Part shown: one piece after another, positions 7,662 through 57,946 of the stretch | Layout: every line of letters starts with the position of its first letter | How positions within the stretch are numbered: position 1 is the stretch's first letter | IMG/VR virus record: IMGVR_UViG_3300019762_000001 | Span: 16,701-80,700 of that record | DNA length: 64,000 nucleotides | Reading direction: 5' to 3' (one strand) | Origin: a virus | The notes under the pieces: model-generated | Seen by the model: the letters and a program-made list of their open reading frames with translations, nothing else | Database searches by the model: none | What the model was told of the DNA's origin: nothing | Program-made: the position numbers and the translations under genes

Positions 7662-9536
7662 TTACGGTCTATCATATTGAGTAACACCTTGATGTAACCT
7701 TAGAGCCAACATACGTGCATTGGTAGGCGCAAAGGATTTTTGGTGTGTGATTAATGTAACAGATTTAGTCTCAGCTTTTTTCTGGATTATCTCAGATACT
7801 ACCTCTATATTATGGGCATCCAGAGATTCAAAGGCTTCATCTATGAATAAGATATTGGTATTCAGTACCTTGTTAACCACATCATGTAAAGCAAAGGCTG
7901 CAGCTATATTAACCAGTTGGCCCTGGCCCCCGGATAGATCCTTTTGGGGTATCTCCATACCATTCTTTAGTATGTAGGCATCTATTGATTTCCTAGCTGA
8001 GTCCATGTTTACTTCGAACTTAACCTGGAACCCAAGTATATCTGCATACTCTAGTAGTAAGTCATTGAAGTCACCCATCATTTGATCAAAGATGAAAGCC
8101 TTGATACCATGGTTTGATAGTGGATCATTTATGCACCATTCTAAATCCTCAACCAATTTTCTACTCTTCCTGGCTAATTTCTTTATTGGCTTAACTTCTT
8201 CTTTTAATTTTTCTATTTGCTTCTCTACCTTACTAATATCCCCAGTAAACTTCTCTTTCTTAATAACCTTAATCTCAGATTTATATTCTTTTATTTGAGA
8301 TTCGTACTCACTCCTTAACCCCTCATTAGAGTTAAAGCTATCCCGTTGTTTTTCTAGTACTTTCTTTTCTTTAGTAAGTTGTTTTTCTTTGCTTATAAGT
8401 TTATCTTTACTAGCAATTTGTTGAGTTAGCTCATTAATCTCCGATTTACTTTTGGTTATAGTATCCCCGGTAATCTTTAAAGAAGTTTCAAGGGCTTTGT
8501 GATTTGCTTTTAATACCCCCTCCCTTTGTTTTCTTTCTGACTTAGTATAGGGTTTACCGCATTCCATACATGAAGTAGGGATATGTTGTAGTTTCTCCCA
8601 AGATTCATCCCTCTCTTTCTTTATACTCTCGTAAGTCCGTTCCTCGAATTTTAGACTACCATTTAACCTGGCCAACTGGGTTTCTAGTTTCCTCCTTTTG
8701 TCTTTAGCTTTAGTTATGCTCTTTAGGCTTTTGTCTATAACTATGATCTTGGAGTTGGGTATGCTCCATTTTACTTTATTCCCAACGCATGACTTTAGTT
8801 TTTCTTCAGCCTCCTCAATTTTAGCTTTAAGTTTTTTAATCTGTTTCTTCTTGTTTGTGTCGAAGGTGAGACTCTGCTCTTTAAGCGATTCAAGTAGTTC
8901 TTCCTTTCCTTCTTGTTTTGAGCTATAGCCCAGTAGTTCAGACTCAAGCTTGGATAACTTTTCTCTTTCATTCTTTAGTTTAGTTTTACCTATTTCCTTT
9001 GCTTTATTTATATAGGCCACGTCAAAGGCTTCTTCAAAGATCTTAACCCGGGATGAATTATCTTCTTCTACTAAACCCTTAACCTTCTGACCCATTGCCA
9101 GTGCACTTTTGAATAACCCATAGCTGAAGCCAAGGATCTCTTGTAGCATTTCTTTTGCTTTACCTTTTGACTTAGCTTCCCCTATTTCCTGTCCGTTTTT
9201 CAGGAGTATTAGCCGGTTCTTACCCTTTGAACCCTGCACTTTGCCGGTAAAGTCTTTACATCTGATGGCCTCATAGGTATCATCGAACTTTTCAAAAACT
9301 ACTCTTACTCTAGTTCCCCGCCATAGGTTAGTTCTTAGCCTTTCCCAAGTCTCAATGGTAGCCCCCTCTTTGAGAGGGTAACCCGTACATACCCAGGATA
9401 GTGCGGATAGTATAGTGGTTTTTCCTGTACCATTTGGAGCCTTGATGGCTGTAAGGCCAGGGTGGTCCAATCTAAACACGAAAGGGATTTGGAATGAACC
9501 AAACCCCTCTATCTCGAGCTCTTTAAAATATAACAT
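7662..9536 (-). CDS. SbcC/Rad50-like ATPase (T4 gp46-like)
   Basis: Walker A APNGTGKT, CMEC zinc hook, LSGGQ signature, LFIDE Walker B, coiled coils. Confidence 0.95.
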   Translation of the reverse strand: MLYFKELEIEGFGSFQIPFVFRLDHPGLTAIKAPNGTGKTTILSALSWVCTGYPLKEGATIETWERLRTNLWRGTRVRVVFEKFDDTYEAIRCKDFTGKVQGSKGKNRLILLKNGQEIGEAKSKGKAKEMLQEILGFSYGLFKSALAMGQKVKGLVEEDNSSRVKIFEEAFDVAYINKAKEIGKTKLKNEREKLSKLESELLGYSSKQEGKEELLESLKEQSLTFDTNKKKQIKKLKAKIEEAEEKLKSCVGNKVKWSIPNSKIIVIDKSLKSITKAKDKRRKLETQLARLNGSLKFEERTYESIKKERDESWEKLQHIPTSCMECGKPYTKSERKQREGVLKANHKALETSLKITGDTITKSKSEINELTQQIASKDKLISKEKQLTKEKKVLEKQRDSFNSNEGLRSEYESQIKEYKSEIKVIKKEKFTGDISKVEKQIEKLKEEVKPIKKLARKSRKLVEDLEWCINDPLSNHGIKAFIFDQMMGDFNDLLLEYADILGFQVKFEVNMDSARKSIDAYILKNGMEIPQKDLSGGQGQLVNIAAAFALHDVVNKVLNTNILFIDEAFESLDAHNIEVVSEIIQKKAETKSVTLITHQKSFAPTNARMLALRLHQGVTQYDRP

Positions 9537-9537
9537 G

Positions 9538-10536
9538 TTAATCCTCCGTTTCTTTAAGTAGGTTAGTTAATGTCCTTACCTTAGTTTTACTTTTTACTTT
9601 CTGAGCTTTGCAGTATGCACTTCCAACCTTAGCCCTATCCTGTGGGTTTTTGATTTGTATCTCTGTCTTTCTCTCAATGGTTTTAGGGGTAGGAACCATA
9701 GTCCAATAATTATAATCATCCTCTGGTTCTTCTCCCTCTTTATAGTATTTAAAGGTAGGTGATTCATATGGTTGAAATCTCATTGACCCATCATTATAAG
9801 CTACCCAGTACCCCATCTGACAACCAGCATCACTTCTTCGTTGTTGATCCGGTGACCCAACCATGTATAGGTTTTTTCCCAATTGTTGTGGCTTATGTAT
9901 ATGACCAGCTGCAACTATATCGAATTTCTTAAATACCATTCTCATTTGACGGTTGATGTTCTCGGTAGAACCCACCTCCCTACCAGAAGGATCCTTTGCT
10001 CCATAAAGGTCTGTGTGAATTAATAGGATGTTTACTTTATCCTTATCTAATTTCAGGCCCTTTACATAGTCTACGAATCCAACGTTATGGTCTATGTATG
10101 GTAACCCATATACCACCATATTCTGGTTCTTAAATTCCTTTGATTTAAAGTCAAGGTTATGGAATAGGTTAGGAAATAGTATAGAATTAACATTCCATAA
10201 TGATGGTGATCTTTTGTTTGGGTTTGGGCTATTTATTTCGGGTTGGTCATGGTTACCAGAAATACCCCAGATAGAAAATAGTTTGTTTTCTATATTAGAT
10301 TCCATCTCCTTTAGCCTTGGCATTACATGCTCCATTAACTTTGTAGTTAAATGTTCTGGGGTATGCCAAAAATCTCCAGTATGTAGGATAGGTATCTTAT
10401 ATCTTGCTGATAGGGCTAAGACAGTTTCTAAAAACTGAAGAGTTACTTCGGTTCTCCTAAAGTCCATGTTAAACTGATTCCAGTTATTTAGGTGGACGTC
10501 TCCGATAAGTATCCCTATTCTTTTTAATTTACCCAC
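9538..10536 (-). CDS. SbcD/Mre11-like nuclease (T4 gp47-like)
   Basis: GDVH, GDFWH, GNHD and GHIH metallophosphoesterase motifs. Confidence 0.93.
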   Translation of the reverse strand: MGKLKRIGILIGDVHLNNWNQFNMDFRRTEVTLQFLETVLALSARYKIPILHTGDFWHTPEHLTTKLMEHVMPRLKEMESNIENKLFSIWGISGNHDQPEINSPNPNKRSPSLWNVNSILFPNLFHNLDFKSKEFKNQNMVVYGLPYIDHNVGFVDYVKGLKLDKDKVNILLIHTDLYGAKDPSGREVGSTENINRQMRMVFKKFDIVAAGHIHKPQQLGKNLYMVGSPDQQRRSDAGCQMGYWVAYNDGSMRFQPYESPTFKYYKEGEEPEDDYNYWTMVPTPKTIERKTEIQIKNPQDRAKVGSAYCKAQKVKSKTKVRTLTNLLKETED

Positions 10537-13916: not shown

Positions 13917-14549
13917 TTATTCTGCTAGGATAAACTTCTTAGCCAACTCAGCCCTGTCCTGTGGATCATCCGACCAAGTGTCAATTACTAAGACCTTAGG
14001 ACCACATTCAGTGGTACCCTGCAGCTCAGTTAAGTAATACTCGAATACTCGATCTACCATACGCTGATAGTAGAGGTTAGCTACTCGAGAATTATTAACC
14101 TCAATATCTGGGCATACAGATTTAACGTAGATAAGATGAGTTAAATTCTCGAAAGCCTCTAAAGCTTCTTCAAAGAACTTCTCAAACTCTTTTTCTGTAA
14201 AATTATGCCCGCATTGTAATGAAGCATAAGTTAGGTTATCTACCGGGCTTCTATCCAAGATCATTTGGTCAGCCCCATAAGATAATATATTAGCCCTAGC
14301 CTCCAGTGCATACTGCTGAAAGGTTTTACCAAATTCGGGGTTAGCATTAGATAGGTTAATCACGTTTTGATGCCCCATGTTCTTATACCCGAACTCAGCT
14401 AAGTGTTCTTTTTGTTGGTCTGTAAAGATTAACCCAACAGATGATGGTATAAATCTCAAATGTAACTGTTCTGATAATAGGTTACATAATGTGGTTTTGC
14501 CCGAACCCGATGGTCCACAGCATGCGACTTTAATGTTCTTTGCATCCAT
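13917..14549 (-). CDS. Deoxynucleotide monophosphate kinase-like P-loop protein
   Basis: GPSGSGKTT and LDRSPVD motifs. Confidence 0.75.
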   Translation of the reverse strand: MDAKNIKVACCGPSGSGKTTLCNLLSEQLHLRFIPSSVGLIFTDQQKEHLAEFGYKNMGHQNVINLSNANPEFGKTFQQYALEARANILSYGADQMILDRSPVDNLTYASLQCGHNFTEKEFEKFFEEALEAFENLTHLIYVKSVCPDIEVNNSRVANLYYQRMVDRVFEYYLTELQGTTECGPKVLVIDTWSDDPQDRAELAKKFILAE

Positions 14550-14569
14550 TTGTAATGTAGTTTTAGTGT

Positions 14570-16795
14570 TTAGTCATAATCTTCTACTTGAGTGTCACCG
14601 TATAGTTCCATCTCCCATTTCTTAGCTAGCTCAACGTAATCAGTTTTAGGATCATAGTCGTGGTAATTACCCCACGTTGGACCCAACTCGCAACTAACTT
14701 TCATGTTAACATGCTTAGCCTGAAATCCAAACCATTTCTTAGTTTGGGGGTTAGCACATATATCAATCATGGGAGGTACTATCTTATGAACATCTTTTGG
14801 TTTTATATAAAATCCTAAAGAGTCATGAACAGTATAGCACTGTTGGAAATACTCTGGGAAATACCCCTGTAGTCTTTTTTCTCTTACTAAGATACTCGAG
14901 AATTGAGTGTAATCTGAAGAGGTTCCCTGAATGGGAGCATTCACTGATTGTCTCTCAGCCTCTGATCTTATCCCTATTACGTTAGAGTATATATTTGGTA
15001 GCCTTCTTTTTCTACCAAAGTATGTTCTTACATAGCCATCTCTGGCAGCTTTCTTGTGTTGGTTCTTAATCCATTTCTCAACCTTTGGGTAAGCAGCATA
15101 CCAATCCCGTTTGAACTGACCGGCTTCATCTGCAGTACATCCAATTGTCTCTGCTAGCATTGGATCTGATTGGCCATATAGGATACCGAACCCAATAGTC
15201 TTAGCTCTTTTCTTACGCTTAGTCCAATAGATATGTTCTGGATGTGATTCATCCTTGGTTATCTCATATACCTCCTCGTATTTTTTGTAAAGCTCATCTC
15301 CCTTTAAATGGGGGAACTCAGCTCTGGTGGCAGTATAAACGTGTAATGAAAGCCCAGATCTAAATGCTTCTATTAGATTCTCATCTTTAGACATCTCAGC
15401 TACCACTCTCATCTCAGCCTGTGAGTAGTCAAACTCTATCATAAGCATACCCCTAGGTGGCCTGAACATGGGTTTAATATCAGAATTTGTTGTAGCCCTT
15501 GGGATATTCTGAAGGTTAGGTTCTACCGAGGATAATCTCCCAGTTACCGTTCCAAAGATTTTATATGAAGTATGGAGTCGGTTATCTTCTCCAAGTATCT
15601 CATACATACCTTTGATGTTAGTGGAGTATAGTTTGGATAATCCCCTATGTTCTAGCATCCTTGCCACAAACCCATCTTTGTCTTCCCCAGATTTACGTAT
15701 CTTAAGCAGAGCCGATTCAGCTGTGGATACTACCCATTCCTTCTTCTTATTCTTCTCCTTAACCTCAGTAAATCTAAAACCATGTTTGTTGTAGTATAGA
15801 AGTTCTTTTAGTTGGGTTGAACTACTCAAATTCAGGTTTGCTATTGCATTTCTTTCCTTATTCGTAGTAAACTCTCCAGCTATATACTTGCTAACTTTAT
15901 CTTCTCTAGTTTTGATCTTTCTAGAGTTATCTATACTATCATCCTCTTTCTCTTCTTTTTTAAGAGCCTTGATTTCCTTCTTGGTATCCTTAATGAGTTT
16001 CTTTTTGGCCTTCTCAACCTTCTTAAGGTTATACTTCTGAATTACCTTCATCTCATATAACCCCTTTTCAGATTCCTCAATCTTTTTACCATATACTTCT
16101 ACCAAGTTCTTAAGGTATGGCCTATCTACAATCATACCCGTATACTCGGACTCTGATAGAACTCGTAGGTTCATCATCAGAAGGTTCCTGAATAACGGGT
16201 AGAAGCCAAGGCTCATTAGCTTTGGTTCAAAGAATAGCCATAATCTAAGAGTAGAGTCACAGTCCTTTGCACAGTACTTAGATAAGCCCTCAAGTGGTTT
16301 TTTATTCCAAGGTAATTTGCTCCCCTCGTAATCTTCATAGCCATCAAATTCTGGTATAAACCTACCAACCTGCTCTTTCAAACCATGGGGTCTTTCCTCA
16401 TCTAATAGGTATTTTGCTAGGATAGTATCAAACCAATATCCTTTTGGAATAATGCCATACCTCTTAAACCATTTCATTTCAAAAGAGGCATTGTGGGCTA
16501 TCTTGACTATATTTGGATCTGCCATTACCTCTCTTCCAAATTTCTGTAGTAGTTTTATCCACTTATCGGATTTTTTGAATGGCGAATCGAAATGACCTAA
16601 AGGTAATACCCAACCAGATCCAGGTTGGAAACTACAACCCAATACTGTGGGATATCCCCCTGGATCACAGAAGGCTCCATCATCATCCCGGGTGGTAGTT
16701 TCGAAATCGACAGAAGCATAACCGGTCATCTTGCAATAACGGATAAGCTTATCCAGCTCTTTCTCTTTGGTTATTATTTTGTAGATTGATTTCAT
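14570..16795 (-). CDS. polA: Family A DNA polymerase with 3'-5' exonuclease domain
   Basis: DFETT exonuclease motif, TGRLSS..PNLQNIP, DYSQAEMR, AKTIGFGILYG and VHDS. Confidence 0.95.
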   Translation of the reverse strand: MKSIYKIITKEKELDKLIRYCKMTGYASVDFETTTRDDDGAFCDPGGYPTVLGCSFQPGSGWVLPLGHFDSPFKKSDKWIKLLQKFGREVMADPNIVKIAHNASFEMKWFKRYGIIPKGYWFDTILAKYLLDEERPHGLKEQVGRFIPEFDGYEDYEGSKLPWNKKPLEGLSKYCAKDCDSTLRLWLFFEPKLMSLGFYPLFRNLLMMNLRVLSESEYTGMIVDRPYLKNLVEVYGKKIEESEKGLYEMKVIQKYNLKKVEKAKKKLIKDTKKEIKALKKEEKEDDSIDNSRKIKTREDKVSKYIAGEFTTNKERNAIANLNLSSSTQLKELLYYNKHGFRFTEVKEKNKKKEWVVSTAESALLKIRKSGEDKDGFVARMLEHRGLSKLYSTNIKGMYEILGEDNRLHTSYKIFGTVTGRLSSVEPNLQNIPRATTNSDIKPMFRPPRGMLMIEFDYSQAEMRVVAEMSKDENLIEAFRSGLSLHVYTATRAEFPHLKGDELYKKYEEVYEITKDESHPEHIYWTKRKKRAKTIGFGILYGQSDPMLAETIGCTADEAGQFKRDWYAAYPKVEKWIKNQHKKAARDGYVRTYFGRKRRLPNIYSNVIGIRSEAERQSVNAPIQGTSSDYTQFSSILVREKRLQGYFPEYFQQCYTVHDSLGFYIKPKDVHKIVPPMIDICANPQTKKWFGFQAKHVNMKVSCELGPTWGNYHDYDPKTDYVELAKKWEMELYGDTQVEDYD

Positions 16796-17091
16796 TTATT
16801 TCCATTCTTTATCCGTTCGGTGAATAGGGTGAGCTTATCTCTGTGCTCTCTTTTCCTAGCCTGTTTCTCTAGAGGTTTATCAAATACATGCTCTTCTAGA
16901 ACTGTTAGGTATATCCTAACCTGAGCCATTTCGGCTTGCAGGTTAGGATCTTGGAAGTCTTTATTATCATTTAAGCCCTTTGCTAAGCATTGTGTAAGCT
17001 CAGCCATTTCCTCTATGAGTTTTGGTATAAAATATTTCTTACCCCTCAGCTTAACATAGGACTTAAGTATTTTAACATCAGCCTTGTTCAT
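16792..17091 (-). CDS. MazG-like all-alpha NTP pyrophosphatase (possibly degenerate)
   Basis: KLIEEMAELTQ...AEMAQV (usual form EIADV). Confidence 0.55.
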   Translation of the reverse strand: MNKADVKILKSYVKLRGKKYFIPKLIEEMAELTQCLAKGLNDNKDFQDPNLQAEMAQVRIYLTVLEEHVFDKPLEKQARKREHRDKLTLFTERIKNGNK

Positions 17092-17806
17092 ATAGTTGGT
17101 CTATGCAGGTTTTTAATCCCTCCCAATCTCTCCGGTAAGAGTGAAGTGAGGCAATGTTGTGATATAGGAAGCCAGGTTCAACTCCTACCATTTCAGCCAC
17201 GTATTCCATTAGCTCCCATGCTAACCAAATATCATTTCCGAAGTGTAGGAATACATCAGCAGATCTTTGTGAGTAGATAATGTGCATTTTACCATTTCGT
17301 ATGATAAACTGATAGCCCAGTGTACAAGGTACTCTCTTCTTACCCCCGATAAAGCTTGGATCTCTAGGGTGGAATACTGGTAAATAGCATTGCCTAGAGT
17401 CACCGTGAACCCTTAGTTCATCGATTATCTTTTCCAAGTTATGGTATCTGTTTAACCTTTCATTGTAGGTATAACAAAATTCACCAGCTTTGCTAAGGAA
17501 TGGTTCCCAAGTATCTTTCCTAATTAACCAAGCCTTTCCCGGGTTAACCCAGCTACGAGATATTCTCTCAGAGAATTCTGATTTACACCAGTAAAAGTTT
17601 TGCTTTGGGTTAGATATAAATAGGTTCTCCTGGTCAGCTCTACTGGTTAAGCAGTAACTGTAGTTAAGGAGCTCCTTTGTTTGGAACTCCTCGTTATCAG
17701 CTACTCTCTGGTTTTGCATTGTCTGGGGATGAACTATTGTACCTTGTTCAGATACATCTCTCATTATCTCAGATAACAATTCTCGACAGTTACTAAATAT
17801 CCTCAT
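17078..17806 (-). CDS. Thymidylate-synthase-fold enzyme, probable dCMP hydroxymethylase/methylase
   Basis: DSRQ, catalytic VPC, YQF, QRSADVFLHFGND with Asp at the E. coli N177 position, and SLHSY. Confidence 0.8.
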   Translation of the reverse strand: MRIFSNCRELLSEIMRDVSEQGTIVHPQTMQNQRVADNEEFQTKELLNYSYCLTSRADQENLFISNPKQNFYWCKSEFSERISRSWVNPGKAWLIRKDTWEPFLSKAGEFCYTYNERLNRYHNLEKIIDELRVHGDSRQCYLPVFHPRDPSFIGGKKRVPCTLGYQFIIRNGKMHIIYSQRSADVFLHFGNDIWLAWELMEYVAEMVGVEPGFLYHNIASLHSYRRDWEGLKTCIDQLYEQG

Positions 17807-18105
17807 TATTTCTTAGGGTTAAGTACGTAAATGATATCAGTGTAGTCAGTGATATCAAAATTCTCAATAGCAGTTAAATTGCTATCGGAGCTAATCTTCA
17901 TATCAAATGGGAAAGCTGTAACAGAGTTCTCATGATACATAACTCTAGTACCTTCATGGTAGTTTTCGGGTACATCCTCTCCAACCTGTACAATAGTACC
18001 CCATTTAGACTTAGTTACATCTCCCTGAGCTTTTATTTCATCAGCTTTGATTATTACTCTTTTGCCCTGTATGGCTCCGTCCTTAATACTGTCTAATTTT
18101 TGCAT
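17806..18105 (-). CDS. GroES/Cpn10-like co-chaperonin
   Basis: GKRVIIK...GTIVQVGED...EGTRVMY; 99 aa. Confidence 0.7.
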   Translation of the reverse strand: MQKLDSIKDGAIQGKRVIIKADEIKAQGDVTKSKWGTIVQVGEDVPENYHEGTRVMYHENSVTAFPFDMKISSDSNLTAIENFDITDYTDIIYVLNPKK

Positions 18106-18142
18106 GTTCTATAGTTTATGTGTTTAAAATAGTGAATAGTAC

Positions 18143-19012
18143 TTACTTTCCTAGTTTTTTATTATACTCCCGTTTGAAAGCCCTACGCTTAGATGGGGAG
18201 ATACAGTCCTCTGGATATGGTATACTCTCTTTATATAACTTTAGATCTTTTACTAGAAGTGGTTTTCTTCCAGAGATCTTTTCCCCCTTATCATTTTCTT
18301 GTAGTTGATTAACACTTCTCAAGTGCACCTTGTACCTAATAGTTTTTGGGTCCACGGTTTTAAAGTAGTGTAAAGTTTCCAAGATCTTTTTCTCGAATTT
18401 GGTTGGGTTCTTTTTCTTTCGGAATAATCTGTCTATACTCTTGTGGTTATCATACATCACAAATGACTCAGCAACTAGGTATATGTTAGGACAAAACATT
18501 TCCAATGATACGCTTTGATCAATCCCATATACATATTCAGCTATCCTCTGTACTAAGAGGAAATCGAATAGTAACCTCTTAGTTACTTCTGAAGATCTCA
18601 GGGTCATGTATAATACAGGTACATCCCTATCCACTCTTCGAGAGAATGTCAAGGTTAATAAGCACCCCTTACCAGAACCATGGGAGTTGTCAAACAAGTA
18701 ACTGATATTGTAGTTAGTTGCTCTCTTTTTCTCCCTGGCTAGTATCTGAGATTTGATTAGGTCAAGATAATCTAAGTGGAGGTAGTTATTTATTAACTTA
18801 GTCCACTTAGCTGTAGTATACCCAAATGTAGAACCAAAGTCAAATTCAGGATCTACCCAGACCTTATTAATTTTGATGTAATGGTTATAGGCAATAATCT
18901 CTGGCCCATACAGTGAGCCTCCAGTTTCCATTACCTCATCAGATTTAAGGGCTAAGTATTCATTAATACCCTCCCAGGCTTCCTGAGTGTTTGAAAATTC
19001 TAGTTCTTTCAT
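18143..19012 (-). CDS. Second, divergent thymidylate-synthase-fold protein
   Basis: KGCLLTLTF...LRSSEVTKRLLFD aligns with PC...RSxD...(N/D). Confidence 0.6.
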   Translation of the reverse strand: MKELEFSNTQEAWEGINEYLALKSDEVMETGGSLYGPEIIAYNHYIKINKVWVDPEFDFGSTFGYTTAKWTKLINNYLHLDYLDLIKSQILAREKKRATNYNISYLFDNSHGSGKGCLLTLTFSRRVDRDVPVLYMTLRSSEVTKRLLFDFLLVQRIAEYVYGIDQSVSLEMFCPNIYLVAESFVMYDNHKSIDRLFRKKKNPTKFEKKILETLHYFKTVDPKTIRYKVHLRSVNQLQENDKGEKISGRKPLLVKDLKLYKESIPYPEDCISPSKRRAFKREYNKKLGK

Positions 19013-19015
19013 CGA

Positions 19016-19801
19016 TTAGTATTTAGATTTTACTCTGAATAGATTGATACGGTTCTTTTTATAGTATACCTGTATGAATCCTAGTGGAGTCATTTGCAAT
19101 GTACCTAAGCATAGTTTAAAATAGATCGTAGCAGCTTCTATTAATCTACTCTTAAACTTATTCTCATCGGTCATTACCTGATGCTGTTTCCAGGGTTTAT
19201 TCTTTAGAACATTCTTGGCCATCTGGAGTTTGTAATTGAATTGCCAGTGGGATTCTATGAGTAATGCTGTGTACTCGGAATCTACCTCTCCAAGTATATC
19301 CCCAGCGGATAGGTAATCAATATGATTCGGGTATTCTCCGGCCAGGTTAAAGAGTTTGCAGGTAGAAACTGGTTTAGCAAACCCCCCATAGTACATTGTA
19401 CTCATAGGGTCTAGGTTGGTTTCATCACCCGCCATAGCTATTTCTAACTCCCTTGGTGTAACCCCAACATAAATCAGGGTCTCAAGTAGGAATGCAGTAG
19501 TATCCGCAATTTCCTCATTGAAACCAGCAAGGTTAGCTAAACTTCTTGTACCTAAGCTCATTAGCTTTTCGTAGTATTCCCAACCTTCCCCAAGTTCCTC
19601 AGCAATTCTGCCGATGAAATCTTTTAGGATAACCTGACTCTTAGGTTCGTGTGGATTGATTGGCCACTGTGGTAGTGATTCTACCCTTACATACTCAACC
19701 ATCAATTCTTTCTGAAGGTCGAATAACACTGATATACCATCCCCGTTGTGTATTTTACTTACCAATTCTTTGGGAAGATTAGGTGCTGATTGAATGTCCA
19801 T
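19016..19801 (-). CDS. Dimeric all-alpha dUTPase/dCTPase-like pyrophosphatase (T4 gp56-like)
   Basis: EELGE, EEIAD, KNKPWK and YYKKNRIN..R...Y motifs. Confidence 0.75.
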   Translation of the reverse strand: MDIQSAPNLPKELVSKIHNGDGISVLFDLQKELMVEYVRVESLPQWPINPHEPKSQVILKDFIGRIAEELGEGWEYYEKLMSLGTRSLANLAGFNEEIADTTAFLLETLIYVGVTPRELEIAMAGDETNLDPMSTMYYGGFAKPVSTCKLFNLAGEYPNHIDYLSAGDILGEVDSEYTALLIESHWQFNYKLQMAKNVLKNKPWKQHQVMTDENKFKSRLIEAATIYFKLCLGTLQMTPLGFIQVYYKKNRINLFRVKSKY

Positions 19802-25781: not shown

Positions 25782-27527
25782 CTAATATCTTTGGACTACT
25801 CTTACTACGGTTATGGTAGATGGGTCTTCTTTAGCTGATATTTGGATTAAAGCCGTCCTATCTACTCTAAGTGGATTAGATGTTATAGAGAATGTTATTC
25901 GGGGTTGGCCCGGTAAACCCCAAGCCCAGCTTACCCAGCCTGGTGCATTGAATGTACCATCTGGGTTTGGTGGGTAGGTAATAACTGGGGAATTAACTCC
26001 TCGGTCTGACCCAATAACATCGATATCGATGATGTTACCGTAGTGAGCCCCTCTATCAAATACAAAATCCCCTGGGGTAGCTGTAATAAATAGGGATGAT
26101 GATTCTTGTTTTACTGCTATATCCAGGGTAATAGATGGATCATCAGTAGACCTAATCGTTATTACTCCCCCTATGCCAGCTTTACCCGAGTTTGGAGTAG
26201 TTGGTATTACCTCAAGTGTATCACCTGTATTATAGTCTGTATCTAAGCTTTTATCTAGAGTTATAAATACTGGCTTAGCTATCACTCGCCATTTTTGGGT
26301 ATCACCACCGGTTACGCTTAAGGTGATTGTTTTAGGGAGCCCTGGTACAGCCTCAAATTCTAGCAGGTTTGAAGAAGTAGCTAAAGTAACAGGGTCTGGT
26401 AATGGGTTTGGAGTCCCAATTGGTGAAAAATTGTCAATAACCCATTGTTGTATATTTGCTATGAGGTCCGAGTGTTGCTTATTAATTTGAGCCCTGGTAT
26501 ATACATCATCAGAGTTAGCCTTCCTATCAACTGAGCTCCTTAAAAAATCCAGTTGCTTATGTATATAAGTATGTGCCGGTACCCATTTCTCAAGGTTATA
26601 AGCCAAGGAGATAGCCCCAGCAGGTCCTGTTAATTCTAACTTACCATAGTTAACCCCTGTACCCCCCAGTTTATCTAAGTTACCACCTATGGATAGATAT
26701 ACAAGTTTAGATGTATTGTTTACTAAGAATATAACAGTGTTAGCTCTAAGGTTAAAGCTATCAGCTACTATATTTTCTATAACACTATTTGTGGCTATAC
26801 TGGGGGGCAATTTAAAGATATTACCATCATCTCCTATAGTAAGGGTTTTAGTAGCTGAATCATAGGTACAAGTGCCCTCAGATTCTGTATTAGTTACTCC
26901 CTGATATAGGTTATAGGTTTTACCGTTAAGGGGTTGAGTTATAGCAGAACTTTGTATATCCTTCTCAAGTTTTGAAAGCCTGCCAGCATCTGAGAATTCC
27001 GGAGTTACTTCTGGGTGATAGAAAATTTGGTCGATAGTGTTTGCTCCTGCTGGTACATCTATTACACCAAGTACTACTTGAGAAAGTGGACTAGTGTACG
27101 CAGGGGCTACTGGTGTATCTGCTGGAGTACCCTTTATTACTAAGTAAGTTGGGGGGTTTACTCCAGGTATGTTGTCTTTATATAGGTGTTCTAATACCAC
27201 TATATCCCTACGACCTTTAGTATCTGTGTTATAGTCTATCACAAGAGAGGCTATACTAACCTCTCCCTCTTCGTGGATGATAGTACCTTGGGGAGTTATT
27301 GATATCCCGGTTCTATCACTTAATAGCCCATCTTTGGTTTTTATTATGACACCAGTGCTATCATGTGAGAGTTTAAAAGATATCTTACCCCCCACTGGAG
27401 TACCAGGTTTTATAGTGTCAAAACCACGATATCTACCTGGGGGCATTATACCAGACCTCTCTAATAGCCTATCCCAGGATAATACCGGATCTTTATACTT
27501 ACTGAATTGCCTTGAATTGGTTGACAT
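25782..27527 (-). CDS. Tail fibre / baseplate protein with C-terminal BACON-like domains
   Basis: N-terminal fibre-anchor pattern (RRDIVVL...LGVIDVPAG); two Ig-like units ending IAVKQE and RTALIQI...VRVVQR. Confidence 0.65.
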   Translation of the reverse strand: MSTNSRQFSKYKDPVLSWDRLLERSGIMPPGRYRGFDTIKPGTPVGGKISFKLSHDSTGVIIKTKDGLLSDRTGISITPQGTIIHEEGEVSIASLVIDYNTDTKGRRDIVVLEHLYKDNIPGVNPPTYLVIKGTPADTPVAPAYTSPLSQVVLGVIDVPAGANTIDQIFYHPEVTPEFSDAGRLSKLEKDIQSSAITQPLNGKTYNLYQGVTNTESEGTCTYDSATKTLTIGDDGNIFKLPPSIATNSVIENIVADSFNLRANTVIFLVNNTSKLVYLSIGGNLDKLGGTGVNYGKLELTGPAGAISLAYNLEKWVPAHTYIHKQLDFLRSSVDRKANSDDVYTRAQINKQHSDLIANIQQWVIDNFSPIGTPNPLPDPVTLATSSNLLEFEAVPGLPKTITLSVTGGDTQKWRVIAKPVFITLDKSLDTDYNTGDTLEVIPTTPNSGKAGIGGVITIRSTDDPSITLDIAVKQESSSLFITATPGDFVFDRGAHYGNIIDIDVIGSDRGVNSPVITYPPNPDGTFNAPGWVSWAWGLPGQPRITFSITSNPLRVDRTALIQISAKEDPSTITVVRVVQRY

Positions 27528-53820: not shown

Positions 53821-54327
53821 CTATTGAAACTGGGGGTTATTGAATATCCCCCAATACACTTCATGTCCTTCGGCTATCCAGCCTTCCACGATCTTTAGTA
53901 AATCCTTATCACTACGGTTTTGTATAACCTTAGGGCTTACTCTTCGATATGCTGTAACCAAACAACCCTCAGTGTCTAAGTGGGTATTACCACCATGGTT
54001 TCTTATACCACTAAATTCTATGATACCATCAGTACAGATATACCTACCATCAGAAGTTTCCTCATTATAGAGCAGGATCATGTCGCGTTTAAATCTAGTT
54101 GAGCGGGATACTATTACTCTATACCAACCTTCTGGGATGGCAGTCTTCCTAGCAACTTTAACTCCAATTGCTCTAACTGCATCTTCCAGCTGGTAAGAGA
54201 AATGTTTTCCCTCTACAAGTACATCGCTTAGAGTAGTATCCTCAAAATACTCTCTACGATTAGAAATTATAGTCCGAGTCTTTGCCGGATTTCTTCTTAC
54301 ATCTTCTTCTGAGATTCTTTTTGCCAT
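53821..54327 (-). CDS. DUF5675-family putative endolysin
   Basis: LED, TAIPEGWY.V, FSGIRNHGGN...DTEGCL. Confidence 0.8.
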   Translation of the reverse strand: MAKRISEEDVRRNPAKTRTIISNRREYFEDTTLSDVLVEGKHFSYQLEDAVRAIGVKVARKTAIPEGWYRVIVSRSTRFKRDMILLYNEETSDGRYICTDGIIEFSGIRNHGGNTHLDTEGCLVTAYRRVSPKVIQNRSDKDLLKIVEGWIAEGHEVYWGIFNNPQFQ

Positions 54328-55331
54328 AGCTCAGTCTTTTTAATTTGTTTATAAAACCATCTTCCTATCTCATAGGGTGGGCACTTAGTTACAGTTACCC
54401 TACCCTTATTTATTGAATAGCCCAGTCTTTCTTCATCTATCCAGATTTTGAATCTGTCTGGTACTCCCTGTATTCTGGCCATTTCCCTTGGTGACATTTG
54501 GTAACCATCTGGGGTGAATTGCCTATTTTGTTTTCTAACGGTTTTTGGGGGATCTCCAGCAAAATTCTTATACACACCGGGAAGATTCTTCATCTTAGTA
54601 CCGGGCATTGACCATTGCTTTTGGTCCCTGTATTGGTTATTCCATATATCTCTTACCTGACCAAGATTTAATTTCCGGCCCTTATAAGACATACAAACCA
54701 CAGTGTCATCGGGCTCCCTAACTTGCCCAAACTCAGGATGTAAAGTGGGCAAATCGTTTAATAAGTCTCTAGTATTCTTTAATTCTTTAACTGGATAGAT
54801 TTTATTTAAAGTGCTAATTACTTTTCTAGAGTCTACTAGAAGTTGCCTATTTACTCCAATTATTACCAATCTAACTCTCGTAATCTGAGAGTTACCAAAT
54901 TTAGATACCGAATCCTTGAAAATGGTTAGCTCATAGTCTTTCTCTATCTCTTCTATTAAATCCGGAGATAAGCTCTCTAACATCTTCGGTAGGTTCTCCA
55001 TTAAGAAAGCCTTTGGTTTATATAATCTTATCGAAGCCCAATAAAGGCTTAGTGATTCATTATCATTTGGGTCACTAAGTTTCTTAGCTCGTGAATATGA
55101 AAGGACAGATGAATGACCACAGTCGGGTGCACCGATGATGATATCGGGTTGAAGTCCATTAAATTCTACAGAATCAAGTTCTTTTACCAGTGGAATGCCA
55201 GGAAAGTTTAACTCCCATTGGATATCATTGGGTGTTTTAAATGCTGTCCTGGGTTCTATGTTGCCCATTAGATATTTTTTAAAGGGGAATAGGACTACTC
55301 CATTACCCCCGCATACGCCAAGTACTTTCAT
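54297..55331 (-). CDS. Atypical DNA cytosine-C5 methyltransferase homologue
   Basis: GAPDCGHSS (IV), MENL (VI), Q..RVR (VIII) and REMARIQGVP (IX); motifs I and X are divergent. Confidence 0.8.
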   Translation of the reverse strand: MKVLGVCGGNGVVLFPFKKYLMGNIEPRTAFKTPNDIQWELNFPGIPLVKELDSVEFNGLQPDIIIGAPDCGHSSVLSYSRAKKLSDPNDNESLSLYWASIRLYKPKAFLMENLPKMLESLSPDLIEEIEKDYELTIFKDSVSKFGNSQITRVRLVIIGVNRQLLVDSRKVISTLNKIYPVKELKNTRDLLNDLPTLHPEFGQVREPDDTVVCMSYKGRKLNLGQVRDIWNNQYRDQKQWSMPGTKMKNLPGVYKNFAGDPPKTVRKQNRQFTPDGYQMSPREMARIQGVPDRFKIWIDEERLGYSINKGRVTVTKCPPYEIGRWFYKQIKKTELWQKESQKKM

Positions 55332-57592: not shown

Positions 57593-57946
57593 ATGGATCT
57601 ACCAGATATATTCACAACCGGAACTATAAGAGTAGTGAACCGGAGAACTCATGCCCCTACGGATCAGGATATTTATATCGGTAGGGGATCTGCTTTAGGT
57701 AATCCTTACTCACATATGCCAGGGGTACCAGAAGCGGGCTTCGGATGTAGGGATAGGGAAGAGGCTATCGATAAGTACAGGGACTGGCTAAGAAGGAAAA
57801 TCCACAGAGAAGATCCTGATGTGCTAGAAGCACTTCAAGAAATTAGGGAGTTGAACAAGAAAGGAGTAGTCTACTTAGTATGCTACTGCTCTCCACTACC
57901 ATGCCACGGTCTAATTATAAAAGAACTATTGAATGAGTCTACCTAA
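57593..57946 (+). CDS. DUF4326-family protein
   Basis: IYIGRGS.LGNPY, REEAIDKY and LVCYCSPLPCHG. Confidence 0.88.
   Translation: MDLPDIFTTGTIRVVNRRTHAPTDQDIYIGRGSALGNPYSHMPGVPEAGFGCRDREEAIDKYRDWLRRKIHREDPDVLEALQEIRELNKKGVVYLVCYCSPLPCHGLIIKELLNEST

What the first reader, a model, noticed from the sequence alone, without database searches (positions are those of the whole stretch)
13917..19801. Candidate cytosine-replacement pathway with two thymidylate-synthase paralogues around the DNA polymerase
Seen: dNMP kinase, PolA, MazG-like, TS-fold 1, GroES, TS-fold 2 and a gp56-like pyrophosphatase are contiguous. TS-1 reads RSADVFLHFGND and TS-2 reads RSSEVTKRLLFD. Known: E. coli ThyA has Asn177 (RSCDVFLGLPFN, dUMP-specific), whereas T4 gp42 dCMP hydroxymethylase has Asp at that position, and T4 couples gp42 with gp1 kinase and gp56 dCTPase to replace C. 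Inference: both enzymes act on dCMP and the genome carries a modified cytosine (hm5C, m5C or something new). TS-2 keeps a Cys and RS but has lost PC, RSxD and HxY, so it could be a heterodimer partner or catalyse a second step. No glycosyltransferase is visible in the window.
Basis: partly seen in the sequence, partly recalled or inferred. Interest (0 to 1): 0.9.

Follow-up and report, generated by a model that had tools for sequence, protein, structure and literature searches.

The report
Phage cytosine-modification cassette, orphan TS-fold enzyme
Next to its DNA polymerase gene, this uncultured 80.7-kb phage carries a T4-like gene set that probably replaces cytosine with a C5-modified cytosine, and in it a cytosine-type thymidylate-synthase relative is paired with a second, very divergent enzyme of the same fold whose reaction nobody has tested, although cultured phages carry the same pair.

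Summary
On the minus strand lie a P-loop dNMP kinase, PolA, a small MazG-like protein, TS-1, a weak GroES-like insert, TS-2 and a MazG/dimeric-dUTPase-type pyrophosphatase. Both quoted motifs are present.

TS-1 is a full thymidylate-synthase (TS) fold. It keeps Cys146, Arg166, Ser167 and Asp169. It has Asp at Asn177, the dCMP marker, and Arg at Leu143.

TS-2 matches no Pfam or NCBIfam model, but its model (pLDDT 91.7) is a TS fold: Z 13.8 to the dCMP hydroxylase AfhB, Foldseek E 1.5e-6. Cys117, Arg139, Glu142 and Asp150 align with Cys146, Arg166, Asp169 and Asn177. They are invariant down to about 17% identity.

TS-2 directly precedes a TS-1-type gene in 78 of 80 related viral contigs, in a second viral lineage, and in cultured Clostridium, Serratia, Yersinia, Streptomyces and Microbacterium phages. 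Xp12, T4 and RB69 have no TS-2.

Every TS gene next to TS-2 has Leu143Arg plus Asn177Asp. I read this as pre-replicative cytosine modification. The product and TS-2's reaction remain unknown. No glycosyltransferase was found.

This scan reached the same reading before on other DNA (five earlier follow-ups). No paper found here names the pair or TS-2's reaction.

The parts
13917..14549 (-). P-loop deoxynucleotide (dNMP) kinase. Its presumed role is to phosphorylate the modified dCMP.
   Evidence: Pfam dNK 3.8e-07 and AAA_28; phrog_2107 'thymidylate kinase' 3.3e-14. Walker A motif GPSGSGKT. A kinase gene stands at the head of the same cassette in CPAS-15, Triscuit, Yersinia P744, Serratia Opt-155 and KimJongPhill.
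14570..16795 (-). Family A DNA polymerase with 3'-5' exonuclease. It would incorporate the modified dNTP.
   Evidence: PF00476 2.3e-80 and PF01612 2.1e-17. It follows the TS pair in 79 of 80 related loci.
16792..17091 (-). Small MazG-like all-alpha NTP pyrophosphatase (99 aa). It is lineage-specific.
   Evidence: phrog_2245 5.2e-08. Found in only 3 of 80 related loci. Sequence.
17078..17806 (-). TS-1, a cytosine-type thymidylate-synthase homologue (Asn177Asp, Leu143Arg, Asp169 kept).
   Evidence: PF00303 57.7 bits. AF2 pLDDT 94.7; Z 23.1 to AfhB, 23.0 to MilA and about 21.5 to ThyA. Active-site signature. Below all NCBIfam ThyA equivalog cut-offs.
17806..18105 (-). GroES/gp31-like small protein. 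It is an insert between TS-2 and TS-1 and probably not part of the pathway.
   Evidence: Cpn10 E 0.007, below the cut-off; phrog_931 5e-4. Present in 2 of 80 related loci.
18143..19012 (-). TS-2, an orphan and highly divergent TS-fold protein. The core is residues 1-192, followed by a lineage-specific helical, basic C-terminal extension.
   Evidence: No Pfam or NCBIfam hit. AF2 pLDDT 91.7. Foldseek E 1.5e-06 to 9iqu. VIA Z 13.8, rmsd 3.7 over 180 residues. hhalign against the TS-1 family: probability 70%, E 4e-05. Invariant N17 K69 L73 Y77 F107 C117 R139 E142 R146 D150.
19016..19801 (-). MazG / dimeric-dUTPase-type NTP pyrophosphatase, the presumed dCTPase (gp56-like role).
   Evidence: phrog_12184 1.7e-18 and phrog_173 5.6e-09. 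Acidic motifs EELGE and EEIAD. Weak match to T4 gp56, E 0.021. The orthologous-position gene in the second lineage hits PF08761 dUTPase_2 at 2.9e-08. Present in 67 of 80 loci directly upstream of TS-2.
54297..55331 (-). C5 DNA cytosine methyltransferase homologue elsewhere in the genome. Its link to the pathway is possible but unproven.
   Evidence: PF00145 2.4e-14 and phrog_116. Conserved in 5 of 5 complete relatives.

Best explanation
This is a pre-replicative cytosine-modification cassette embedded in the phage replication module.

Inferred steps:
1. The MazG/dimeric-dUTPase-type pyrophosphatase turns dCTP into dCMP. This starves the polymerase of normal dCTP and feeds the next enzyme.
2. 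TS-1, a folate-type TS homologue retargeted to cytosine (Asn177Asp), attacks C6 of dCMP with its cysteine and adds a one-carbon unit at C5.
3. Leu143 normally seals the active site for hydride transfer. Here it is Arg, so the exocyclic methylene intermediate is more likely trapped by water or another nucleophile than reduced to a methyl group. The product would then be 5-hydroxymethyl-dCMP or a 5-CH2-X derivative.
4. TS-2 is a second, catalytically competent TS-fold enzyme. It also reads a cytosine nucleotide (Cys117, Arg139, Glu142, Asp150) and acts in the same pathway. Most likely it processes the TS-1 substrate or product. It may do this in a complex with TS-1.
5. The P-loop kinase and the host NDP kinase make the triphosphate, and the phage PolA incorporates it.

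What is shown: the gene content, the folds, the active-site residues and the tight coupling of TS-2 with this TS-1 subtype across very different phages.

What is inferred: substrate, product, order of steps, and the claim that virion DNA is modified.
For: - TS-1 is a TS fold with the catalytic set intact and Asp at position 177 in all 77 full-length related sequences.
- Asn177Asp switches TS to dCMP. TS homologues with Asp177 are enriched on cytosine-modified viral contigs, where TS domains co-occur with PRA-PH-type pyrophosphohydrolase and dCMP deaminase domains and form a co-occurrence network with DNA ligases (PMC8670742; PMC13326640).
- Loss of a hydrophobic Leu143 correlates with non-methyl products (PMC13326640).
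- TS-1 keeps Asp169, so it lacks the Asp169Asn signature of the flavin-dependent 5-hydroxylases.
- TS-2 is a TS fold. Its Cys, Arg, Glu and Asp are collinear with Cys146, Arg166, Asp169 and Asn177. They are invariant across a family of 189 50%-identity clusters.
- The order pyrophosphatase, TS-2, TS-1, polymerase holds in 78 of 80 loci. It also holds in a second lineage whose TS-2 is only about 25% identical.
- The same order is found in cultured phages of Clostridium, Serratia, Yersinia, Streptomyces and Microbacterium and in an uncultured freshwater (Manatee Spring) virus genome. TS-2 relatives were also found by tblastn in Pseudomonas and Brevundimonas phages, whose gene order I did not inspect.
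- Every TS gene next to a TS-2 gene has Leu143Arg plus Asn177Asp. Xp12, T4, RB69 and Maribacter Molly TS homologues do not have this pair of changes, and none has a TS-2 gene in the stretch searched.
- Triscuit also encodes a canonical ThyA. The pair is therefore not simply the phage's thymidylate synthase.
Against: - No chemistry was measured. No virion DNA data exist for this phage or, as far as the searchable literature shows, for any cultured carrier.
- Arg at position 143 has no characterised precedent, so methyl versus hydroxymethyl versus another product is a guess.
- TS-2 has no conserved Arg at the Arg126/Arg127 place and no His207.
- In TS-2 the segment between the first beta-hairpin and the central strand is 37 residues shorter than in TS-1. 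In ThyA this segment carries folate and water contacts, so TS-2 may not use folate at all.
- A conserved C5 DNA methyltransferase homologue in the same genomes would be pointless if every C were already substituted at C5.
- Two contig fragments have TS-2 without an adjacent TS-1.
Confidence: 0.6

Rival explanations
1. TS-1 and TS-2 form an obligate heterodimer in place of the usual TS homodimer. TS-1 donates its Arg126-equivalent into the TS-2 site. TS-2 cannot reciprocate, so the dimer has one complete active site or two different ones. TS-2 would be a specialised subunit and not a free-standing second enzyme.
For: - TS enzymes are obligate dimers with trans-acting Arg126' and Arg127' (established knowledge).
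- TS-1-type enzymes keep Arg126 but have Gln or Lys at position 127.
- TS-2 has no conserved Arg at either place.
- The two genes are adjacent, often overlapping, and almost always co-inherited.
- The TS-1 subtype changes only 4 times on the TS-2 tree, against about 17 in shuffles.
- TS-2 evolves much faster than TS-1: about 25% against 45% identity between lineages.
Against: - At least two well-supported swaps of TS-1 subtype occur on the TS-2 tree.
- One relative, MT121964, has two TS-2 genes for one TS-1.
- Gln127 also occurs in the Maribacter phage TS, which has no TS-2 gene in the stretch searched.
- TS-2's own active-site residues are invariant, which a purely structural subunit would not need.
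- No TS-2/TS-1 fusion was seen among the longer family members examined.
Confidence: 0.25
2. The cassette only reshapes nucleotide pools and the virion DNA is canonical. For example, dCMP is methylated by TS-1 and then deaminated to dTMP. The deaminase would be the neighbouring dCMP deaminase in other lineages, or TS-2 acting through covalent C6 catalysis. This would be a dUMP-independent route to thymidylate.
For: - A Zn-dependent dCMP deaminase sits just downstream of TS-1, directly or one to two genes on, in several lineages.
- This phage has no canonical ThyA in the ORFs scanned.
- Cysteine addition at C6 is known to promote C4 deamination in C5-methyltransferases (established knowledge).
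Against: - Triscuit carries a canonical ThyA beside the pair.
- No DHFR was found here, whereas the true dCMP methylase phage Xp12 encodes one next to its TS.
- Leu143 is replaced, which argues against hydride transfer.
- Asp177-type TS genes are statistically tied to modified DNA in metaviromes.
Confidence: 0.1
3. TS-2 is a flavin-dependent dCMP oxygenase like AfhB / RB69 gp48. It would make 5-hydroxy-dCMP beside a folate-dependent TS-1.
For: AfhB (9iqu, 9iqc) is the top structural match of TS-2, with Z 13.8 and 13.3 against about 10 for ThyA. The TS-2 HMM weakly hits RB69 gp48, E 1.1e-3 in a small set.
Against: - The diagnostic Asp169Asn change is absent. TS-2 has an invariant Glu there.
- No glycosyl- or arabinosyltransferase or NDP-sugar genes were detected.
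- TS-1 also scores Z 23 to AfhB, so the ranking may reflect the compact size of these proteins more than shared chemistry.
Confidence: 0.05

Closest known systems
T4 pre-replicative hydroxymethylcytosine pathway (gp56 dCTPase/dUTPase, gp42 dCMP hydroxymethylase, gp1 dNMP kinase)
   Same: It combines an all-alpha NTP pyrophosphatase, an Asp177-type TS homologue and a dNMP kinase, placed among replication genes. Asp169 is kept, so the enzyme is folate-type.
   Different: T4 gp42 has Asp at position 143 and Arg-Arg at 126/127, whereas TS-1 has Arg143 and Arg-Gln. T4 has no TS-2. T4 adds glucosyltransferases, and none was found here. The polymerase is family A, not family B.
Flavin-dependent 5-hydroxy-dCMP synthases (phage HY126 AfhB, PDB 9iqu/9iqc; RB69 gp48; DLP3 gp80; PMC13326640)
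   Same: They are compact TS-fold enzymes that act on dCMP with Asp at position 177. They are the best structural match of TS-2 and tie for best match of TS-1.
   Different: They carry Asp169Asn and Leu143Glu. TS-1 has Asp169 and Arg143, and TS-2 has Glu at 169. They come with sugar-nucleotide and glycosyltransferase genes, which are absent here.
Xanthomonas phage Xp12 dCMP methyltransferase system (5-methylcytosine DNA)
   Same: A TS homologue with Asp177 and Asp169, next to a dCMP deaminase.
   Different: Xp12 has Asn143, Pro147 and Arg126-Arg127, with a DHFR next door, and no TS-2 in the 50 kb searched.
MilA CMP hydroxymethylase (mildiomycin pathway, PDB 5jnh/5b6d)
   Same: It is the best PDB sequence match of TS-1 (E 1.9e-09). 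It is cytosine-specific with Asp at position 177, and it is a hydroxymethylase.
   Different: It acts on the ribonucleotide CMP in antibiotic synthesis. It has Asp at position 143, a longer chain and no partner protein.
MetaGPA association of Asp177-type TS with PRA-PH/MazG, dCMP deaminase and DNA ligase domains on cytosine-modified viral contigs (PMC8670742)
   Same: The same domain neighbourhood. The second lineage here even has ligase and deaminase after TS-1.
   Different: That study worked with Pfam domains, so TS-2, which has no Pfam domain, was invisible to it.

Membership tests
Thymidylate synthase / dCMP hydroxymethylase superfamily (PF00303): TS-1 | Profile match above the curated cut-off, and TS fold | tested here: met
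   57.7 bits against a cut-off of 24.3. Z 21-23 to ThyA, MilA and AfhB with rmsd 1.9-2.5 over about 217 residues.
Thymidylate synthase / dCMP hydroxymethylase superfamily (PF00303): TS-1 | Catalytic Cys146, with Arg166, Ser167, Asp169, Tyr94 and His207 | tested here: met
   All are present in TS-1 and in the 77 full-length related sequences.
Canonical ThyA (dUMP to dTMP): TS-1 | Asn177, Leu143 and His147; score above the NCBIfam equivalog cut-offs | tested here: not met
   TS-1 has Asp177, Arg143 and Thr147. The best NCBIfam score is 66 bits against a cut-off of 174.55.
T4-type dCMP hydroxymethylase: TS-1 | Asn177Asp with Asp169 kept | tested here: met
T4-type dCMP hydroxymethylase: TS-1 | Acidic residue (Asp or Glu) at position 143 | tested here: not met
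   Arg at position 143 in every member. It is polar but of opposite charge.
Flavin-dependent 5hodCMP synthase (AfhB / RB69 gp48): TS-1 and TS-2 | Asp169Asn diagnostic substitution (PMC13326640) | tested here: not met
   TS-1 has Asp and TS-2 has an invariant Glu.
TS superfamily: TS-2 | Sequence-profile membership (PF00303) | tested here: not met
   No Pfam or NCBIfam hit for TS-2 or for 10 distant relatives. Profile-profile comparison reaches only 70% probability, E 4e-05.
TS superfamily: TS-2 | TS fold | tested here: met
   pLDDT 91.7. Foldseek probability 1.00, E 1.5e-06. Z 13.8 with rmsd 3.7 over 180 residues; 394 chains reach Z 8 or more, and all those listed are TS-family.
TS superfamily: TS-2 | Catalytic Cys and phosphate-binding Arg166 in register | tested here: met
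   Cys117 and Arg139 align with them and are invariant.
TS superfamily: TS-2 | Trans-acting Arg126/Arg127; His207 | tested here: not met
   Asn100 and Tyr101 align there and no Arg is conserved. His207 aligns with Val185.
TS superfamily: TS-2 | Folate-contact elements (Glu58 helix, Trp80/Trp83) | tested here: inconclusive
   The segment is 37 residues shorter than in TS-1. Invariant Lys69-Trp70 and Tyr77 lie in it, but their equivalence could not be fixed.
All-alpha NTP pyrophosphatase (MazG / dimeric dUTPase, T4 gp56 type): 19016-19801 | Profile match and acidic metal-binding motifs | tested here: met
   phrog_12184 1.7e-18 and phrog_173. EELGE and EEIAD motifs. The positional orthologue hits PF08761.
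All-alpha NTP pyrophosphatase (MazG / dimeric dUTPase, T4 gp56 type): 19016-19801 | dCTP specificity | not testable with these tools
   There is only a weak direct match to gp56, E 0.021.
T4-like complete cytosine replacement | Modified base present in virion DNA | not testable with these tools
   The only run holding the sequence is kept as assembled contigs from a microbial mat metagenome.

The most novel reading that the evidence does not exclude
TS-2 (phrog_34294, phrog_13667 and this family) is a new catalytic branch of the thymidylate-synthase superfamily. It works only together with the Arg143/Asp177 TS subtype. The two-enzyme unit makes, at the nucleotide level, a cytosine derivative not yet described in DNA. 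One route would be TS-2 re-forming the exocyclic methylene intermediate from 5-hydroxymethyl-dCMP and coupling it to a nucleophile other than water. The base would then be present in cultured phages of at least four bacterial phyla.
Probability: 0.3. Interest if true: 0.85.

Novelty: new variant of a known kind. Interest (0 to 1): 0.62.

Why it matters
Pre-replicative pyrimidine replacement is a main route by which phages escape restriction and CRISPR. It has also supplied useful enzymes and modified DNAs. All characterised cases use a single TS-fold enzyme. Here a second TS-fold family, invisible to Pfam and NCBIfam and listed as 'unknown function' in PHROGs, is locked to one particular cytosine-type TS subtype. 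This holds in phages of Proteobacteria, Firmicutes and Actinobacteria, and in this probably Bacteroidota-infecting group.

If the pair makes a new base, or shows a new way of building a TS active site, it extends the chemistry of a textbook enzyme family. It is directly testable, because cultured carriers exist. It also flags wrong annotations: the TS-2 gene of Clostridium phage CPAS-15 is labelled a colanic acid glycosyltransferase.

Tried and rejected
- **Complex prediction.** TS-1 (A2) with TS-2 (A1) gave ipSAE 0.00 in both runs. The verdict was 'no answer', so it counts neither for nor against binding.
- I reached the context of distant TS-2 members through the search for related loci and the phage collection instead.
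- **Over-diverse alignment.** The 16-sequence alignment A4 was too diverse to seed a locus search. A5 worked.
- **Near-identical DNA.** A megablast search of the phage collection found nothing.
- **TS-2 profile against PDB sequences.** Nothing meaningful came back.
- **First hhalign run.** A1 against A2 gave only 2% probability. The more diverse A3 gave 70%.
- **Possible fusion.** P0250 (483 aa) was checked as a TS-2/TS-1 fusion and is not one.
- **Sequencing runs.** One DNA holder was found, kept as contigs, from a microbial mat metagenome and probably the source sample. No RNA holder was listed. I did not use read laying, because contigs cannot show base modification.
- **Literature.** Searches for DNA modification in the cultured carriers (C. 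perfringens phages, Yersinia P744, Serratia Serbin/Tlacuache, PMBT14) found no statement on modified bases. The AfhB paper itself is not in the library.
- **Other modification enzymes.** I looked for a glycosyltransferase, DHFR, canonical ThyA, Zn-dependent dCMP deaminase, carbamoyltransferase and TET in about 70 ORFs of the 80.7-kb genome and detected none. The structural-gene block (window about 27.5-53.6 kb) and several small ORFs were not scanned, so absence is not proven.
- **Glu58 in TS-1.** I first thought 'KELL' in TS-1 was the Glu58 helix. The model shows a beta-strand there, so the Glu58 equivalent is left unassigned.

Full report
**Setting**

The window is bases 16701-80700 of a complete 80.7-kb viral record with 123-bp direct terminal repeats. 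The only public run that holds the stretch is a microbial mat metagenome. A BACON-domain protein hints at a Bacteroidota host.

The finding lies in a long minus-strand replication block. In window order this block reads:
- SbcCD-like nuclease
- flap endonuclease
- RecA/UvsX
- gp32-like SSB
- an unknown 161-aa protein
- P-loop kinase
- PolA
- small MazG-like protein
- TS-1
- GroES-like protein
- TS-2
- large MazG-like pyrophosphatase
- an unknown 150-aa protein
- SF2 helicase
- an unknown 284-aa protein
- primase
- DnaB

**The observation**

The GroES call is weak: Cpn10 E 0.007 is below the cut-off. The gene occurs in only 2 of 80 related loci, so it is an insert and not part of the set. The small MazG-like gene is also lineage-specific, in 3 of 80 loci.

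The large pyrophosphatase is conserved directly upstream of TS-2 in 67 of 80 loci. It has MazG-type acidic motifs. It matches T4 gp56 only weakly, E 0.021. Its positional counterpart in a second lineage hits Pfam dUTPase_2, so 'gp56-like' is fair at superfamily level.

**TS-1**

TS-1 matches PF00303 well above the cut-off. It folds with pLDDT 94.7 into a complete TS fold. Z is 23.1 to AfhB, 23.0 to MilA and about 21.5 to ThyA; these are essentially tied.

I aligned it with E. coli ThyA, T4 gp42, RB69 gp48 and the Xp12 enzyme. TS-1 keeps Trp80, Tyr94, Arg126, Pro145-Cys146, Arg166, Ser167, Asp169 and His207. It has Asp at 177, Arg at 143, Thr or Ser at 147, and Gln or Lys at 127. The same holds for all 77 full-length homologues from related loci.

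Published work gives three markers (PMC13326640; PMC8670742):
- Asp177 is the dCMP marker.
- Loss of the hydrophobic Leu143 goes with non-methyl products.
- Asp169Asn marks the flavin-dependent 5-hydroxylases.

On these markers TS-1 is a folate-type, cytosine-directed enzyme that is probably not a simple methylase. Arg at position 143 has no characterised precedent, so the product stays open. TS-1 falls far below every NCBIfam ThyA equivalog cut-off. I could not place the Glu58 equivalent with confidence.

**TS-2**

TS-2 has no Pfam, NCBIfam or PDB-sequence match. It belongs to a well-populated viral family: 330 clusters at 90% identity and 189 representatives at 50% identity.

With 37 homologues it folds at pLDDT 91.7. 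Foldseek ranks only TS-family structures at the top: AfhB at E 1.5e-06, then T4 dCMP hydroxymethylase, MilA and ThyA. VIA-align gives Z 13.8, rmsd 3.7 Å over 180 residues to AfhB, 12.4 to MilA and about 10 to ThyA. The match covers residues 1-192. Residues 193-289 are an extra helical, basic extension.

Profile-profile alignment with the TS-1 family gives probability 70%, E 4e-05, using the diverse alignment A3. An earlier run with A1 produced the same register. The alignment places:
- Cys117 on Cys146
- Arg139-Ser140 on Arg166-Ser167
- Glu142 on Asp169
- Asp150 on Asn177

Across members down to about 17% identity, the invariant residues are N17, K69, L73, Y77, F107, C117, R139, E142, R146 and D150. 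That pattern fits a working active site that reads an amino-pyrimidine, not a decayed copy.

TS-2 lacks three things. It has no conserved Arg at the Arg126/Arg127 place. It has no His207. And the segment between the first hairpin and the central strand is 37 residues shorter than in TS-1. In ThyA that segment holds folate and catalytic-water contacts, so cofactor use is uncertain.

**Coupling of the two genes**

In 80 related viral loci, TS-2 is directly followed by TS-1 in 78. The two exceptions are fragments about 11-12% complete, with no TS-1 on the fragment.

A second viral lineage (35-46 kb contigs, PolA about 25-30% identical) has the order pyrophosphatase, TS-2, TS-1, DNA ligase, dCMP deaminase, PolA. 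There TS-2 is only about 25% identical while TS-1 is about 45% identical.

Cultured phages carry the same unit:
- Clostridium perfringens phages CPAS-15, CP3, CPD4, P21 and relatives. The order is kinase, dUTPase, TS-2, TS, PolA, and TS-2 is mislabelled a colanic acid glycosyltransferase.
- Yersinia phage P744.
- Serratia phages Opt-155, Tlacuache and Serbin.
- Pseudomonas phages PMBT14, Almagne, Lebethron and STP12, and Brevundimonas phages. For these I saw only the TS-2 tblastn match and did not inspect the gene order.
- Streptomyces phage KimJongPhill.
- Microbacterium phages Triscuit and Huwbert.

An uncultured freshwater (Manatee Spring) virus genome carries the unit too. In PHROGs these proteins fall into phrog_34294 and phrog_13667, both 'unknown function'.

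Every TS gene beside a TS-2 gene shows Arg143 plus Asp177. The comparators differ:
- Xp12's dCMP methylase: Asn143, Arg-Arg at 126/127, DHFR next door.
- T4 gp42: Asp143.
- RB69 gp48: Glu143, Asn169.
- Maribacter phage TS: Asp143, Asn177.

An HMM of TS-2 found no TS-2 gene in any of those loci. Triscuit has, in addition, a canonical ThyA (gp67). So the pair is not the phage's thymidylate synthase.

Within the window's own phage group there are two TS-1 subtypes. On the TS-2 tree the subtype changes 4 times, at least 2 of them forced by supported branches, against about 17 in shuffles. Inheritance is therefore mostly joint, with occasional partner exchange. One relative, MT121964, has two TS-2 genes before its TS-1.

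**What it most likely does**

The simplest reading is a T4-like pre-replicative pathway:
1. dCTP is hydrolysed to dCMP.
2. C5 chemistry takes place on dCMP.
3. The phage kinase and host NDK re-phosphorylate the product.
4. PolA incorporates it.

TS-1 supplies the one-carbon transfer. TS-2 is a second cytosine-nucleotide enzyme in the same pathway.

I rank the roles of TS-2 as follows. Either a separate step on the TS-1 substrate or product, or a specialised subunit of a TS-1/TS-2 heterodimer; the two are not exclusive. Next comes a pool-only route to dTMP with canonical DNA. Last is a flavin hydroxylase.

The complex prediction gave no verdict. No glycosyltransferase, DHFR, ThyA or Zn-deaminase was detected in about 70 scanned ORFs. 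Any modification is therefore probably completed at the nucleotide level, or by the conserved C5-methyltransferase homologue at 54297-55331. That gene is present in 5 of 5 complete relatives. Its presence is also a mild argument against complete C5 substitution.

**Novelty**

The general scheme is known: an Asp177-type TS, an NTP pyrophosphatase and a kinase giving a modified cytosine (T4; MetaGPA). The unexamined part is the obligate-looking pairing with an orphan TS-fold family, together with the Arg143 signature of the partner.

Some GenBank records already label TS-2 relatives 'pyrimidine hmase synthase', so automated remote homology has seen the fold. I found no paper that describes the pair or its product.

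This scan has reached the same conclusion on other genomes: e1-3282312, e1-5357613, e1-5919647, e1-6022914 and e1-3777757. I re-derived it independently here. New in this report are the Arg143/Asp177 partner signature with negative controls (Xp12, T4, RB69, Molly), the subtype-swap tree and the Triscuit ThyA control.

Noticed in passing
window 54297-55331 (-): C5 DNA cytosine methyltransferase homologue (PF00145 2.4e-14). It has variant motifs: VCGGNG for motif I, APDC for PC, and TKCPP for motif X. It is conserved in 5 of 5 complete relatives. It is odd in a phage predicted to substitute C5 of cytosine, and it could act on unmodified sites or in a later modification step.
   Followed up: partly
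window 18143-19012 (TS-2 residues 264-285) and genome 9762-10169 (L086:9762-10169, minus strand): A short module, YP-x-x-C-I followed by a basic run (IPYPEDCISPSKRRAFKRE in TS-2, YVYPKGCIDTQARKSHRQK in the other protein), occurs at the TS-2 C-terminus and in an unrelated 135-aa early protein. In TS-2 it is conserved within this phage group only. It may be a shared docking or nucleic-acid-binding tail.
   Followed up: partly
L001 (MT121964) 7971-8960 and 8953-9738: This human-gut relative has two tandem TS-2-family genes (HMM E 6.6e-52 and 1.2e-61) ahead of a single TS-1.
   Followed up: partly
L096 (Clostridium phage CPAS-15) 6001-6750: The TS-2 homologue is annotated in GenBank as 'colanic acid biosynthesis glycosyltransferase WcaC'. 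It matches phrog_34294 at 3.4e-181 and the TS-2 HMM at 4e-48, so the label is very likely wrong.
   Followed up: yes
L098 (Microbacterium phage Triscuit) 4917-7994: One cassette holds three TS-fold genes: gp64 (TS-2 type), gp66 (Arg143/Asp177 type) and gp67 (canonical ThyA with Leu143, His147 and Asn177).
   Followed up: yes
window 57593-57946 (+): Small protein with DUF4326 (1.8e-17) and a weak DUF488-N3a match. Its function is unknown, and it lies in the plus-strand early block.
   Followed up: no
L086:323-838 (-), genome bases 323-838, outside the window: Pentapeptide-repeat protein (PF00805 1.6e-24), a possible DNA mimic.
   Followed up: no
L086:13589-14074 (-), outside the window: Pyrimidine-dimer DNA glycosylase (DenV-like) N-terminal domain, PF03013 5.5e-07.
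   Followed up: no
window 25782-27527 (-): 581-aa protein with a C-terminal BACON domain (weak, 1.2e-4), a hint of a Bacteroidota host. The source sample is a microbial mat metagenome.
   Followed up: no
L060 2535-4344 and L010 1649-3071: Two short contig fragments have TS-2 followed by an unrelated ORF in place of TS-1. In L060 this is followed by a dCMP-deaminase-like gene before PolA. TS-1 may lie elsewhere in these genomes or be absent.
   Followed up: partly
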